A stretch of DNA of 35,343 nt from a virus. Taxonomy: Duplodnaviria > Caudoviricetes. The stretch is taken from positions 1-35,343 of the IMG/VR virus record IMGVR_UViG_3300022177_000057. One strand, 5' to 3'. The position numbers and the translations under genes are program-made. Under the pieces are notes generated by a model that did not search any database, had not been told where the DNA came from, and worked only from the letters and a program-made list of their open reading frames with translations. Shown in pieces: positions 1,583-9,059 of this stretch (position 1 is its first letter; every line of letters begins with the position of its first letter).

Positions 1583-1685
1583 AAACCAATTCAACTTCGG
1601 CTTGACAAAACAAAACCGTTTCAGGTAATAACCTATTAGGTTGTGATGACCATTTTAGGTTGTGTCATTATCCGGCGGTCAAAGC
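1583..1685. promoter_or_regulatory. Divergent lysis/lysogeny control region with promoter and candidate operators
   Basis: AT-rich; perfect TTGACA at 1602-1607 with a TAAT-containing -10 near 1624-1631. Palindrome AACCTA-T-TAGGTT at 1630-1642. Direct repeat TTAGGTTGTG at 1636-1645 and 1655-1664. Confidence 0.75.
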
Positions 1686-4141: not shown

Positions 4142-5875
4142 ATGACCGACGAGCTGGCGCGGCAACTGGTCCTGGCCCTCAAGGCCGCCCCCTACGGCGG
4201 CAAGGAGGCGGTGCTGGCCCATTGGGCCGCGCACCTGGGCCTGTCCCGCTCCAGCCTACTGCGGGCCGCCGGCCGCGCCGGCTATCAGCCCCAGGAGCGC
4301 AAGCCCCGGGCCGACGCCGGCCGCAGCCGGGCCGGCATCAGCGCCGACGGCCTGGACTACGTGGTGGCCCTGATGACCGGCAGCCACCGCAAGGTCGGCC
4401 GGATGGAGATGCCCACCACCGAGGCGGTGGAGGAGTGCATCCGCCGCGGGGTGCTGCCCCCGGACACCCGGGTGGAGACGGTGCGTCGGCTCCTGCGCCA
4501 ACGGGGAGCCAGCCGCCGCGCCCTGCAGGCCAACTACACCACCGACGGCCAGACGGTGAGCGCCGCCCACGTGCGGCTGGTTAGCGACGGCCCCAACCAC
4601 ATGCACCAGGTCGACGTGTCGGCGTGCCTCCACTGGTATTTCCGCAAGCGCGGGGGCCTGGCCTTCCGCCACCAGAAATTGGACCTGGCCGGCGGCAAGA
4701 AGGCCGAACCCTACCGGGCCATCCGCGAGCATATTCTGCGCTACGTGTTGGTGGACCACGCCACGGGCGCGCTGTTCGTCAGGTATTACCTGGCCGCCGG
4801 CGAAACCGCCCTGAACATGATCGACTGCCTGCACCACGCCTGGCGGCGGCGCGAGCACCCCCAGGACATCTTCCACGGCGCGCCGCGCCTGCTCTACTTC
4901 GATCGCGGTGCGGCCAACACCGCCGCCATCACCGCCAACCTGTTGGACAACCTCCAGGTGCGCTGGGAGGCCCACCAGGCCGGCAACAGCCGGGCCACCG
5001 GCGCGGCCGAGGTCTACCAGCGCATCTGGCAGCAGCACTTCGAAAGCAAGCTGTTCCTGCGCCCCCCGGAGAACCTCGAGGAACTGAACGCTCGGGCCGA
5101 CGACGCGCGCATCTACTTCTGCGCCACCCGGATCAACCGGGCCACCGGCCAGACCCGTTGGCAGGCCTGGTCGGGTATCCGCGGCGATGAACTGCGGGTG
5201 CCCCCGCCCCGCGAGGTCTGGAACGAGTTGGTTCACGAGCGGCCCCACCTGACCCGAGCCAGCGCCGACGGCATCGTGCGCCACAAGGGCTCCCGCGCCC
5301 TGATCCTGGAGCCCATCAACGTGGGCGAGCCGATCATGGTGCTGCGCAACCCCTACAAGCTGCCCGAGCTGTGCCTGTTCCGGGTGACCGAGGACGGCGG
5401 CCGGGGCGCGCCGATGGCCAGCAAGCACGTGGCCGACGAGCGCGATCTGGCCGTGGCGGTGGGCGAGTTCCGCCGCCGGGCCGACACCCCGGCCCAGAAA
5501 GCCATGAAGTTGGCTGGAGGGCTGGACCTGAGCGGCTTCAGCGAGACGGTGTTCGCGGCCAAGGTCGACGAGCTGCCGGCCAACGTGCGCTTTTTGGAGC
5601 GCAAGGGAAGCGAGATCGCGGTGGAGCCGCCCGCAGCGCCGGAGCAGGCCTCGGCCGGGGACGACGAGGCGCGACCGGCCTGGTTCGCCACCGGGACCGA
5701 TCGTTACGAGTGGTGCCTGCGCCGCCGGGCCGCCGGGGCCGAGCTGGGGCCGGCGGACCGGGCGTGGATGGAAGAGTTCGAGCGCGACGAGGAATACATC
5801 GCCCAAGTGGACTGGTTCACCCAGCTCCGCGCGTTCCTCGCCCAACAAGTCGTAAACACGGGAGGGAGAGCATGA
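4142..5875 (+). CDS. DDE transposase (MuA equivalent)
   Basis: N-terminal HTH and RKPRADAG; candidate catalytic D (MHQVD), D (LYFDRG) and E (ATGAAE). Confidence 0.9.
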   Translation: MTDELARQLVLALKAAPYGGKEAVLAHWAAHLGLSRSSLLRAAGRAGYQPQERKPRADAGRSRAGISADGLDYVVALMTGSHRKVGRMEMPTTEAVEECIRRGVLPPDTRVETVRRLLRQRGASRRALQANYTTDGQTVSAAHVRLVSDGPNHMHQVDVSACLHWYFRKRGGLAFRHQKLDLAGGKKAEPYRAIREHILRYVLVDHATGALFVRYYLAAGETALNMIDCLHHAWRRREHPQDIFHGAPRLLYFDRGAANTAAITANLLDNLQVRWEAHQAGNSRATGAAEVYQRIWQQHFESKLFLRPPENLEELNARADDARIYFCATRINRATGQTRWQAWSGIRGDELRVPPPREVWNELVHERPHLTRASADGIVRHKGSRALILEPINVGEPIMVLRNPYKLPELCLFRVTEDGGRGAPMASKHVADERDLAVAVGEFRRRADTPAQKAMKLAGGLDLSGFSETVFAAKVDELPANVRFLERKGSEIAVEPPAAPEQASAGDDEARPAWFATGTDRYEWCLRRRAAGAELGPADRAWMEEFERDEEYIAQVDWFTQLRAFLAQQVVNTGGRA

Positions 5876-6603
5876 GCCGGGATTGGAAGTTCATTCAAAC
5901 CGCCAACGTTCGCAACCTGACCGGGGCCATGAACGCCCTGATGAACCGTCCGCCCAGGACCCCGGGTCTGGCGGTGGTGCATGGCCCGGCCGGACGGGGC
6001 AAGACCGAAGCCGCCATCTGGTATTGCGGCAACCGTGGCGGCCGCTACCTGGTGGCCAACCCCTTGTGGACCCCGCGCTGGATGCTGTGCGACCTGTACG
6101 CGGCGCTCAAGGGCCTCAAGACCGCCAACTTCACCAGCGCCAAGGCGGCGTTCTGGGAATGTCACCAGCTGATGAAGACCGACTCCCTGCCGGTGTTCAT
6201 CGACGAGGCCGACCAGATCGCCCGCAAGTTGCCTCTGCTGGAGGCCCTGCGCAACCTGGTGGACGGCACCGGGACGCCCATCGTCTGCGTGGGCACCGAC
6301 CAGATTTTCGTTCAGCTGCAACAGCGGGAGCAGTTCGCCAGCCGGGTCTATCAGGTGGTTACCTTCGAGGCCCTGAGCCTGGATGAAGTGAAGATGGCGG
6401 CCTCCGAATTAAATGGCCTGAATCTGGACGACGCGGCCGCCAAGGCGCTGCTGGAGGCCTGTGGCGGCTACTTCCGCGACCTGGTGGTGTCCCTGGGCAT
6501 CCTGGTCCAAGCGGCCACGGCCAGCGGCACCAAGGAGCCCGACGCCAAGATGGTGCAGGGCCTGTCACGTCGGGTGATGCGGGCCATGCTGCGGGCGGCC
6601 TGA
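5872..6603 (+). CDS. AAA+ transposition ATPase (MuB equivalent)
   Basis: ATGA overlap with the transposase; Walker A GPAGRGKT; Walker B VFIDEAD. Confidence 0.92.
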   Translation: MSRDWKFIQTANVRNLTGAMNALMNRPPRTPGLAVVHGPAGRGKTEAAIWYCGNRGGRYLVANPLWTPRWMLCDLYAALKGLKTANFTSAKAAFWECHQLMKTDSLPVFIDEADQIARKLPLLEALRNLVDGTGTPIVCVGTDQIFVQLQQREQFASRVYQVVTFEALSLDEVKMAASELNGLNLDDAAAKALLEACGGYFRDLVVSLGILVQAATASGTKEPDAKMVQGLSRRVMRAMLRAA

Positions 6604-7842: not shown

Positions 7843-8097
7843 ATGATCGCCTACGCATGGGCCAGCGGCCTAATTGGGTTCGGCCCCAAGTGCCCCAAGA
7901 GAGCCCTGCCCATCGCCAACCACGACGACGAAGCCAAGCTGCGCGATACCATCCACGGCACTGCCCGCAAGGCCCGCCAAAGCAATAGCTGGTTGGTGCC
8001 CGGAGTCCCCGAGGCGGCCGACGGGAACGCGGCCGTGAATGCCCTGGTCTCCTACAGTCAACAGGTCATGGAAGCACTGAAGCGGGAGAACCCATAG
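7843..8097 (+). CDS. Conserved small phage protein, often labelled 'host nuclease inhibitor'
   Basis: MIAYAWASGLIGFG..P..ALPI...LVPGVPEA signature; the function label is unverified. Confidence 0.75.
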   Translation: MIAYAWASGLIGFGPKCPKRALPIANHDDEAKLRDTIHGTARKARQSNSWLVPGVPEAADGNAAVNALVSYSQQVMEALKRENP

Positions 8098-8166
8098 CCG
8101 AAACGCCCCGGAGCGTCCGGGGCGTCGGAGCGGGCTGGCCGCCGCCCCCTGATGATGGCAGGCCAG
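8097..8166 (+). ncRNA. Type II hammerhead ribozyme with pseudoknot
   Basis: GAAA 8100-8103; stem III 8103-8112/8116-8125; GUC site 8124-8126; stem I 8127-8133/8142-8148; CUGAUGA 8149-8155; stem II GCC 8097-8099/GGC 8157-8159; pseudoknot CUGGCC 8135-8140/GGCCAG 8161-8166. Confidence 0.88.
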
Positions 8167-8171
8167 GCAGG

Positions 8172-8297
8172 TGAGGGTTGCCGGAGGCGGGTACGAGCCG
8201 CCCCCGGCGACCGGATGGAATCAGCATCCGACCAGGTGAGACACCCAACCCTCGTGACATAGGGCCAGAGGGAAGACTAACACGGAGAGGTCGGATG
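8172..8297 (+). promoter_or_regulatory. Structured leader of the methyltransferase gene (multi-branch fold with an anti-start-codon element)
   Basis: Closing stem 8172-8180/8246-8254 with three internal hairpins; CATCCGACC 8225-8233 is complementary to GGTCGGATG 8289-8297. Confidence 0.5.
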
Positions 8298-9059
8298 GTT
8301 AGAGCGGATTTCGAGGCTGAGGGCGTGATGCTTTTTCGGGGTGACAGCGTGGCCTTGTTGGATCAGTTGGTGTTGCCGCCGGTGGACGCGGTGATCACCG
8401 ACCCGCCCTACAGCAGCGGCGGGTTCACCCATGCCGCGCGCTCGGCCCCGCCCGAGCAGAAATACGTCAGCGCCGGGCAGAAGAAGACCTGGCCCAGCTT
8501 CCTGGGCGACAATCGCGACTCGTTGTCCTGGTTGGTCTGGTCGGACGTGTGGGCCAGCCTGGCCCATCGTCACTGCCGGGATGCGGCATATTTCCTCATG
8601 TTCTCGGATTGGCGGCAACTGCCGTTGGCCAGCATCGCCCTGCAGATGGGCGGATTCGTCTGGCGGGGGGTGATCGCCTGGGACAAGACCGAGGCCGCCC
8701 GCTCGCCCCACAAGGGCTATTTCCGCCATCAATGCGAATACGTCCTGTGGGGCTCCAAGGGGCCGTTGCCGGCCAGCGGCGGGCGGGGTCCCTGGCCCGG
8801 CTGCCTGCGCCACCCGGTGAGGCAGAGCGACAAGCACCACATGACCGGCAAGCCCACGGACCTGATGACCGACCTGGTGCGGGTGGCCCCGCCCGGCGGC
8901 GTGGTGCTGGACCCATTCATGGGCTCGGGCACCACCGGCGTGGCCGCGCTGCGCGCCGGCTGCCAATTCGTGGGCATTGAGATGGACCCGCACTACTTCG
9001 AAGTGGCCAAGGAAAGAATATCAGCCGCCTTGGCCAAGAGGAGCGCAGATGCGTCCTGA
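8295..9059 (+). CDS. Beta-class N6-adenine/N4-cytosine DNA methyltransferase (orphan)
   Basis: Catalytic VITDPPY precedes SAM-binding VLDPFMGSGTTG; HMTGKP; SD GGAGAGG before ATG 8295. Confidence 0.93.
   Translation: MVRADFEAEGVMLFRGDSVALLDQLVLPPVDAVITDPPYSSGGFTHAARSAPPEQKYVSAGQKKTWPSFLGDNRDSLSWLVWSDVWASLAHRHCRDAAYFLMFSDWRQLPLASIALQMGGFVWRGVIAWDKTEAARSPHKGYFRHQCEYVLWGSKGPLPASGGRGPWPGCLRHPVRQSDKHHMTGKPTDLMTDLVRVAPPGGVVLDPFMGSGTTGVAALRAGCQFVGIEMDPHYFEVAKERISAALAKRSADAS

What the first reader, a model, noticed from the sequence alone, without database searches (positions are those of the whole stretch)
8097..8166. Complete type II hammerhead ribozyme inside the early operon of a transposable prophage
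Seen: all core elements occur in type II order. These are GAAA, a perfect 10-bp stem III, a GUC cleavage triplet, a 7-bp stem I with one A-C mismatch, CUGAUGA, and a short stem II with one extra U (8156). Loop I (CUGGCC) pairs perfectly with the 3' tail (GGCCAG). Known: bacterial and phage type II hammerheads use such a pseudoknot, and an extra base between A9 and G10.1 is tolerated in some natural hammerheads. Inference: cleavage after C8126, 29 nt past the upstream stop, would split the early mRNA into a transposition part and an MTase-dnaB-mor part. The first stem II base is the G of the upstream TAG, so terminating ribosomes could modulate folding.
Basis: partly seen in the sequence, partly recalled or inferred. 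Interest (0 to 1): 0.88.

Follow-up and report, generated by a model that had tools for sequence, protein, structure and literature searches.

The report
Hammerhead ribozyme before antisense-controlled methylase leader
A self-cutting RNA motif of a well-known kind (type II hammerhead) sits between two genes of a jumping prophage and likely cuts its early message, and right behind it lies a conserved folded element, found before phage DNA-modification genes, that likely makes a small antisense RNA and probably keeps the methylase switched off.

Summary
The hammerhead is real but ordinary. Window 8096-8167 matches Rfam Hammerhead_II at 47.3 bits (cut-off 37). All listed elements are in place, and stems and pseudoknot covary in related prophages. 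The extra U and the overlap with the stop codon are common: 52 of 124 and 67 of 99. Cutting of prophage messages was proposed and shown in vitro for other prophages in 2011. Ribosome control of folding is untested. The A-C mismatch is rare (3 of 125) and close relatives carry G there, so this copy may be slower.

I found 17 distinct copies, 15 before Pfam-confirmed DNA-modification operons of four families. The sense RNA is predicted to hide the methylase start codon. The opposite strand carries an extended -10 box (12 of 17 exact) and folds as a closed four-way junction, so it likely encodes a ~98-nt antisense RNA. Only 3 of 17 copies have a hammerhead upstream, so the two are separate modules. 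Nothing here shows cleavage or transcription.

The parts
7843..8097 (+). 84-aa ORF, PHROG 1518 'host nuclease inhibitor' family; its TAG overlaps stem II
8097..8166 (+). type II hammerhead ribozyme (RF02276) with extra U8156
8103..8125 (+). stem III hairpin, 10 bp; would cap the 3' end of the upstream product
   Evidence: role inferred
8124..8127 (+). GUC triplet; predicted cut between C8126 and G8127
   Evidence: by homology to the hammerhead consensus, not shown
8127..8148 (+). stem I (7 bp, A8129-C8146 mismatch) with loop I; would cap the 5' end of the downstream product
8135..8166 (+). pseudoknot 8135-8140 / 8161-8166
8149..8156 (+). CUGAUGA core plus extra U
8173..8253 (.). conserved four-way-junction element; outer stem 8173-8180 / 8246-8253; no Rfam match
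8225..8233 (+). anti-start segment, predicted to pair with 8289-8297 (methylase start codon)
8170..8267 (-). predicted ~98-nt antisense RNA: 5' hairpin plus closed four-way junction; both ends inferred
8274..8282 (-). extended -10-like box TG-n-TAnnnT of the predicted antisense promoter
8284..8290 (+). Shine-Dalgarno-like GGAGAGG
8295..9059 (+). DNA methyltransferase, Pfam N6_N4_Mtase, 254 aa from ATG 8295
   Evidence: start supported by L305 alignment from residue 1
4142..6603 (+). transposase (PHROG 310) and adjacent AAA ATPase that mark the prophage as transposable

Best explanation
The sequence at 8097-8166 is a type II hammerhead ribozyme motif that likely cuts the prophage's early message after C8126, and the downstream piece would begin with a conserved leader that is predicted to hide the methylase start codon and is likely controlled by a small antisense RNA made from the opposite strand. 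Step 1 (shown): the ribozyme motif, its covariation and the gene order. Step 2 (inferred, about 0.8): it cuts during transcription without a ligand. The upstream piece would end in the stem III hairpin with a cyclic phosphate; the downstream piece would start with the stem I hairpin and a 5'-OH, so the halves could decay and be translated separately. Step 3 (conservation shown, function inferred, about 0.75): the extended -10 box at 8282-8274 drives a ~98-nt four-way-junction RNA antisense to the leader. Step 4 (inferred, about 0.55): that RNA pairs through its variable loops with the newly made, still open leader and silences it by duplex decay or interference. The methylase would then be made only when strong early transcription outruns the antisense RNA. 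The two modules are independent; here they lie 6 nt apart.
For: Ribozyme: RF02276 above cut-off. On 14 hand-picked similar hammerheads, 12 of 21 pairs change on both sides, including 6 of 7 in stem I and 3 of 5 in the pseudoknot. The genome with the closest transposase (85%) has a hammerhead after the same gene, with the same TAG overlap and a fully paired, different stem I. L305 has hammerhead, leader and a 68% identical methylase in the same order. A related contig keeps 8093-8266 while both flanking genes are replaced. PMC3088659 showed in vitro cutting of three prophage transcripts. Leader: 17 distinct copies; 15 of 17 precede Pfam-confirmed N6_N4, D12, Mom or DAM-like/GNAT genes, the other 2 an ABC-type gene, with a GNAT hit in L344. 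In 9 of 9 close copies the full-length fold hides the AUG. The anti-start pair changes on both sides in 3 of 9. Consensus energy is -47.5 on the minus strand against -27.6 on the plus strand, and 16 of 17 copies fold better on minus. Exact TGnTAnnnT is present in 12 of 17 at 16-24 nt from the outer stem, and the pattern occurs only 5 times in the whole window. Mu mom is harmful and tightly controlled (PMC3299994 passage).
Against: No cleavage, transcript end or antisense RNA was observed. Without the pseudoknot the hammerhead fold scores -33.5 against -39.1 for a rival hairpin. A stem I mismatch at this position occurs in only 3 of 125. Only 3 of 17 leaders have a hammerhead upstream, and 0 of 80 viral loci with a related methylase have either element. 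The antisense RNA would not cover the ribosome-binding site, and blocking the part it covers lowers the cost of opening that site in 15 of 17 (no control), which points to activation rather than silencing. The minus strand is G-rich, which favours its folding energies. 5 of 17 lack the exact -10 pattern. No -35 box or terminator for the antisense RNA is evident, and the consensus promoter scan did not list it. The copies are related, so counts are not independent events.
Confidence: 0.62

Rival explanations
1. Translation gates the ribozyme: a ribosome ending at the TAG covers stem II and GAAA, so heavy translation of the upstream gene delays cutting.
For: 67 of 99 hammerheads start within 5 nt of an upstream stop, against 27 of 943 matched positions. 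Among 26 with a long downstream gap and both ends called, 16 are still flush against 1.7 expected.
Against: No functional test. The long-gap class may include missed short genes (my ORF cut-off was 50 codons). The stop supplies an A that is conserved before stem II anyway. The upstream gene is swapped freely. A hairpin-capped 3' end just behind the stop explains the placement equally well.
Confidence: 0.2
2. The antisense RNA is an activator: by capturing the anti-start segment 8225-8233 it frees the methylase start codon, much as Com opens the Mu mom leader.
For: The predicted RNA covers the anti-start or anti-SD segment but stops 27-52 nt before the AUG; the opening cost falls in 15 of 17 copies, in the window from 9.1 to 5.3 kcal/mol.
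Against: Removing any upstream competitor lowers that cost, and there was no control. A weaker relative (L360, E 6.9e-7) precedes a com-mom pair that already has its activator. A housekeeping-type promoter would be on in the lysogen, when the enzyme is expected to be off.
Confidence: 0.25
3. This copy of the ribozyme is weakened or decaying, and the message is mostly read through.
For: Rare A8129-C8146 mismatch (3 of 125). G at 8129 in 8 contigs of two other runs. The rival hairpin wins by 5.6 kcal/mol with A but by 1.5 with G. Related prophages L304 and L306 have no hammerhead in the fetched stretch.
Against: All core bases and all core-closing pairs are intact. The energies leave out the 6-bp pseudoknot and Mg2+. 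A contig of another study (X2) also keeps A8129.
Confidence: 0.15
4. The leader is a sense-strand riboswitch (for example for SAM or SAH) whose four-way junction is the aptamer, insulated by the ribozyme cut.
For: Two exclusive sense folds both have compensated pairs; in L315 one change is compensated in both partners. The core is kept while the masking segment differs, anti-start in most and anti-SD in L336-L338.
Against: The 'junction' bases pair fully on the minus strand. The conserved 3' motif reads as a minus-strand -10 box. Downstream enzymes include Mom and GNAT proteins, not only methyltransferases. No Rfam riboswitch match.
Confidence: 0.1

Closest known systems
Type II hammerhead ribozymes, Rfam RF02276 (Perreault et al. 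2011, PMC3088659; parts 1-5 of 8 of the main text read)
   Same: Topology, core, short stem II, loop I / 3' tail pseudoknot, intergenic place in a prophage, proposed cutting of polycistronic messages.
   Different: One extra U after A9 with a 3-bp stem II (common in my set, 52 of 124), an A-C mismatch in stem I, a single copy rather than a cluster, and a structured methylase leader directly behind it.
CChMVd (+) viroid hammerhead with an extra base between A9 and G10.1 (PMC1636495, passages)
   Same: An inserted base at the same place in an active natural hammerhead.
   Different: Extra A, with a moderate rate loss reported; a viroid RNA, not a phage mRNA.
Mu com-mom control (PMC3299994, abstract and passages)
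   Same: A transposable phage keeps a DNA-modification gene under tight post-transcriptional control, and the enzyme is interchangeable between Mom and methyltransferases.
   Different: Mu uses the Com protein and a late operon at the right end. Here the methylase lies among the early genes, I identified no Com gene before it, and the control element is a likely antisense RNA.
EcoRI antisense RNA Rna0 (PMC3141266, abstract only)
   Same: A small antisense RNA (88 nt) from a reverse promoter at a restriction-modification locus.
   Different: [quoted passage not shown]
ColE1 RNAI, P1/P7 C4, P4 CI and type I toxin-antitoxin antisense RNAs (recalled, no call)
   Same: About 80-110 nt multi-hairpin antisense RNAs with variable loops that act on a refolding leader.
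   Different: No Rfam match of the element to any family; the target here is a DNA-modification gene.
Pistol-like PK hammerhead (PMC11300833; parts 1-2 of 6 read)
   Same: Same catalytic core, pseudoknot-stabilised.
   Different: There the pseudoknot replaces helix II; here it joins loop I to the 3' tail, so it is a different architecture.

Membership tests
Hammerhead_II (RF02276) | Covariance-model score above the gathering cut-off over the whole model | tested here: met
   47.3 bits against 37, model positions 1-66
Hammerhead_II (RF02276) | Core C3 U4 G5 A6 N7 G8 A9, G12 A13 A14 A15, U16 H17 | tested here: met
   CUGAUGA 8149-8155, GAAA 8100-8103, UC 8125-8126; core as listed in PMC3088659 methods
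Hammerhead_II (RF02276) | Core-closing pairs 1.1-2.1, 10.1-11.1 and 15.1-16.1 | tested here: met
   G8127-C8148, G8157-C8099, A8103-U8125. 10.1-11.1 needs U8156 read as a bulge; read without the bulge, the 2011 filter would have rejected it at first
Hammerhead_II (RF02276) | Type II order: stems I and III closed by loops, stem II open | tested here: met
Hammerhead_II (RF02276) | Pseudoknot between loop I and the 3' tail | tested here: met
   6 bp in the window; 3 of 5 pairs change on both sides among 14 sequences; 5 bp or more in 77 of 125 against a shuffled-tail mean of 44.5, maximum 57
Hammerhead_II (RF02276) | Site-specific self-cleavage after H17 | not testable with these tools
   Only shallow RNA contigs were available
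Transposable (Mu-like) prophage | Transposase with adjacent ATPase, repressor facing away, Mor-type activator, head and tail genes | tested here: met
   the record is classed as a provirus
Transposable (Mu-like) prophage | Transposase-binding ends and target-site duplication | not tested
   The record is 44% complete by the tool's estimate
Any Rfam family (riboswitches, antisense RNAs) for the element 8173-8297 | Covariance-model match | tested here: not met
   Best E 1.2 on 8150-8330; 0 matches at E up to 1 in 10 homologous loci
Cis-encoded antisense RNA (functional class) for the element 8170-8267 minus | Own promoter on the opposite strand | tested here: inconclusive
   Extended -10 pattern conserved in 12 of 17; no -35, no transcript evidence
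Cis-encoded antisense RNA (functional class) for the element 8170-8267 minus | RNA is made and changes expression of the overlapped message | not testable with these tools
   Contigs show neither strand nor ends

The most novel reading that the evidence does not exclude
The prophage chains two RNA devices: a stop-codon-gated hammerhead cuts out a methylase message with a fixed 168-nt leader, and an undescribed family of four-way-junction antisense RNAs reads that leader through phage-specific loops to decide when DNA modification is switched on. The same antisense family serves four unrelated enzyme families (N6_N4, Dam/D12, Mom, DAM-like/GNAT), so it would be a portable, protein-free timing switch for phage anti-restriction.
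Probability: 0.3. Interest if true: 0.75.

Novelty: new member of a known kind. Interest (0 to 1): 0.45.

Why it matters
The biological role of bacterial and phage self-cleaving ribozymes is still described as largely elusive (PMC6765202, passage). This locus offers a compact test: one ribozyme, a natural weak/strong allele pair at 8129, a swappable upstream gene and a measurable downstream enzyme. The neighbouring element matters more. It is a covarying RNA motif without an Rfam match that goes with phage DNA-modification genes of several families, and it would explain how such genes are held in check where no Com gene is seen. The hammerhead alone is an ordinary further example.

Tried and rejected
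Relatives in viral contigs by single protein: none for the upstream ORF or the transposase. A 17-base leader motif scan gave 13 hits with unrelated flanks, rejected as chance. Leader BLAST against annotated phages and plasmids: no match. Leader models on 80 methylase loci and 92 other loci: nothing below E 0.35. Model R2 hit L361 (E 3.8e-4) lies inside a coding frame that I read as a ribosomal protein; rejected and not counted. L360 was kept apart as a weak member. L349 and L351 duplicate L347 and L350 and were dropped before counting; the 33-base partial hit L317 was not counted. A leader-peptide reading was rejected: the frame is open into the enzyme in L304, L305 and L306 but broken in the window. 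Four metatranscriptome runs of one study have pieces ending at 8075 and 8086 and one starting at 8158, none across 8126/8127; at depth 2-5 this is no evidence. The consensus promoter and terminator scan gave chance-level counts. Two searches of the held supplements of PMC3088659 for extra-U motifs found nothing; gapped alignments would defeat such a search, so I cannot say whether the 2011 set held this subtype. Literature searches that found no description of the leader or antisense element. No paper on hammerheads in Streptomyces phages. The library lacks most subscription journals, and large motif catalogues in supplements were not seen.

Full report
Observation. Rfam scores 8096-8167 as Hammerhead_II at 47.3 bits, cut-off 37, E 7.6e-7. 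It is the only hammerhead of any of the three types that my descriptor finds in the window. Rfam's alignment shows two inserted bases because its model has a 2-bp stem II; the reading with one bulged U and three pairs fits the sequence and its relatives better.

Setting. The record is a provirus. A repressor gene faces left (551-1594). On the plus strand follow small regulators, a transposase (PHROG 310), an AAA ATPase, an HTH protein, an unknown ORF, the 84-aa 'host nuclease inhibitor' ORF, the ribozyme, an N6_N4 methyltransferase, DnaB, a Mor-type activator, lysis, head and tail genes. Record titles of the closest transposase relatives name Desulfarculus or Desulfarculaceae in 3 of 5 genome hits. 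That one transcript runs from the repressor-proximal promoter through 8097 is inferred from gene order; the promoter and terminator scan was at chance level.

Conservation of the ribozyme. The genome whose transposase is 85% identical has a hammerhead after the homologous upstream gene. It shows the same TAG overlap, a fully paired stem I of different sequence and a GUA triplet. L305 has hammerhead, leader and methylase in the same order. RF02276 passes its cut-off in 11 of 37 genomes of that order. On 14 hand-picked similar sequences, 95.9% of 293 cells pair and 12 of 21 pairs change on both sides, including 3 of 5 pseudoknot pairs; stem III of L305 is misaligned there. In public DNA runs, one contig keeps 8093-8266 while both neighbouring genes are replaced. 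Eight contigs in two runs carry G at 8129, which restores the stem I pair, while one contig of another study keeps A.

How ordinary it is. A pattern scan suggests about 920 stored viral stretches with this stem III. Among 124 distinct type II hammerheads in all loci fetched by then, 52 have the extra U; 89 of the 124 came from the pattern scan, so the share is biased. Of 99 with enough upstream sequence, 67 begin within 5 nt of a stop codon, against 27 of 943 control positions with the same four bases. The anchoring holds for 16 of 26 with a long downstream gap, 1.7 expected, although missed short genes may inflate that class. 13 of 80 viral loci with a homologue of the upstream ORF carry a hammerhead downstream of it, and 0 of 80 loci with a related methylase do. 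Perreault et al. 2011 (PMC3088659, parts 1-5 of 8 read) described type II hammerheads, the pseudoknot and prophage clusters, and showed cutting of three ~2-kb transcripts in vitro. A 2019 review (PMC6765202, passages) still calls the role largely elusive. An extra base after A9 is known from a viroid, with a moderate rate loss (PMC1636495, passages).

Possible weakness of this copy. A mismatch at stem I position 3 occurs in 3 of 125, and 105 of 125 have six perfect pairs. Without the pseudoknot the hammerhead fold scores -33.5 against -39.1 kcal/mol for a hairpin that buries the core; with the natural G allele the figures are -40.4 and -41.9. I still expect activity, because the core is intact and the tertiary contacts are not scored.

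The methylase most likely starts at 8295, so 128 nt lie between the pseudoknot and the AUG. The stretch 8172-8256 folds at z -4.7 and has no Rfam match. BLAST, a pattern scan and a covariance model found 17 distinct copies including the window's. The tallies were 7 of 37 genomes of the order by BLAST (one of them only a 33-base partial hit), 10 of 61 of the class and 3 of 151 of a phylum sample by model R1. Fifteen of the 17 precede Pfam-confirmed DNA-modification genes, directly or after a ParB-like ORF (my reading; Pfam gave no hit for that ORF): N6_N4 (window, L305, L315, L346), D12/Dam (L304, L306, L314, L336, L337, L338, L345, L347, L350), Mom (L316) and DAM-like plus GNAT (L308). L318 and L344 precede an ABC-type gene, with a GNAT hit in L344. 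A second model added a weak member before a com-mom pair (L360) and one false hit (L361). Only 3 of 17 have a hammerhead upstream in the fetched stretches, so the two are separate modules.

Reading of the element. On the sense strand, 9 of 9 close copies fold so that the start codon is paired, while the transcript cut short after the outer stem folds as a four-way junction. Both folds have compensated pairs: 9 of 27 and 10 of 31 pairs, most of them in helices that the two folds share. The anti-start pair changes on both sides in 3 of 9, and one change in L315 is compensated in both alternative partners. On the minus strand the same stretch closes into a junction with almost no unpaired bases: consensus energy -47.5 against -27.6, 16 of 17 copies more stable, and z -3.2 for 8267-8170. 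G-richness of that strand helps. At 16-24 nt from the outer stem, 12 of 17 copies have an exact TGnTAnnnT on the minus strand with the free positions varying; 4 end in C and 1 lacks the TG. The pattern occurs 5 times in the whole window. I read this as an extended -10 box (sigma-70 consensus recalled) for a ~98-nt antisense RNA.

Mechanism. Shown: motifs, covariation, gene context. Inferred: the ribozyme cuts during transcription and leaves each product with a terminal hairpin. The methylase message starts at G8127, is open only briefly while nascent, then refolds shut. The antisense RNA recognises the open form through its variable loops. I put silencing at about 0.55, activation at about 0.3 and other roles at 0.15. 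For silencing: Mu keeps mom tightly off (PMC3299994, passages), L360 already has a Com activator, and a housekeeping promoter would be on in the lysogen. For activation: the RNA would stop short of the ribosome-binding site, and blocking the covered part lowers the opening cost in 15 of 17 (no control). Four shallow metatranscriptomes could not test any of this.

Novelty. The hammerhead is a new member of a known family in a known kind of place. I found no description of the antisense element in four literature searches or in Rfam; subscription papers and motif catalogues in supplements were not seen. After reaching this reading I found that unchecked notes of this scan describe similar antisense cloverleaves, stop-flush hammerheads and the extra-base subtype in other genomes. 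They are not independent support, and I did not test whether those cloverleaves are homologous to this one. Overall interest is 0.45: about 0.25 for the ribozyme alone, raised by the adjacent undescribed element and by how testable the locus is.

Noticed in passing
L127 423-3851 (Streptomyces phage Omar, NC_054662.1): Seven type II hammerheads above the Rfam cut-off within 5 kb on the gene strand, none annotated; one literature search found no paper on them.
   Followed up: partly
L224, L233, L234, L251, L265, L269, L270, L281, L283, L284, L286, L291, L293: 13 of 80 viral loci with a homologue of the upstream ORF have one or two type II hammerheads 0.3-4 kb downstream of it; L293 has the same 6-bp pseudoknot as the window without the extra U.
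   Followed up: partly
L360 1480-1640 (G077): Weak member of the leader family directly before a Com zinc-ribbon gene and a Mom gene.
   Followed up: partly
L308, L316, L318, L344, L346, L347, L350, at the predicted antisense start: The first hairpin of the predicted antisense RNA is a perfect 12-14 bp palindrome of different sequence in each copy: self-complementary loops or a DNA site. The window lacks it.
   Followed up: no
G216 (L347, L349, L350, L351): One genome holds four leader-Dam copies as two identical pairs, as expected of duplicated transposable prophages.
   Followed up: no
L304 7574-8451: The Dam-like gene behind the leader is frameshifted near its start in this assembly.
   Followed up: no
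L301 3536-3609: A tRNA gene lies about 250 nt outside the window's left end in the longer contig that holds the same prophage.
   Followed up: no
L022-L025, L056-L057: Viral contigs with four and at least three closely spaced type II hammerheads of the same subtype.
   Followed up: no
window 1603-1632 +: TTGACA followed by an AT-rich stretch before the first rightward gene: candidate early promoter, not listed by the consensus scan.
   Followed up: no
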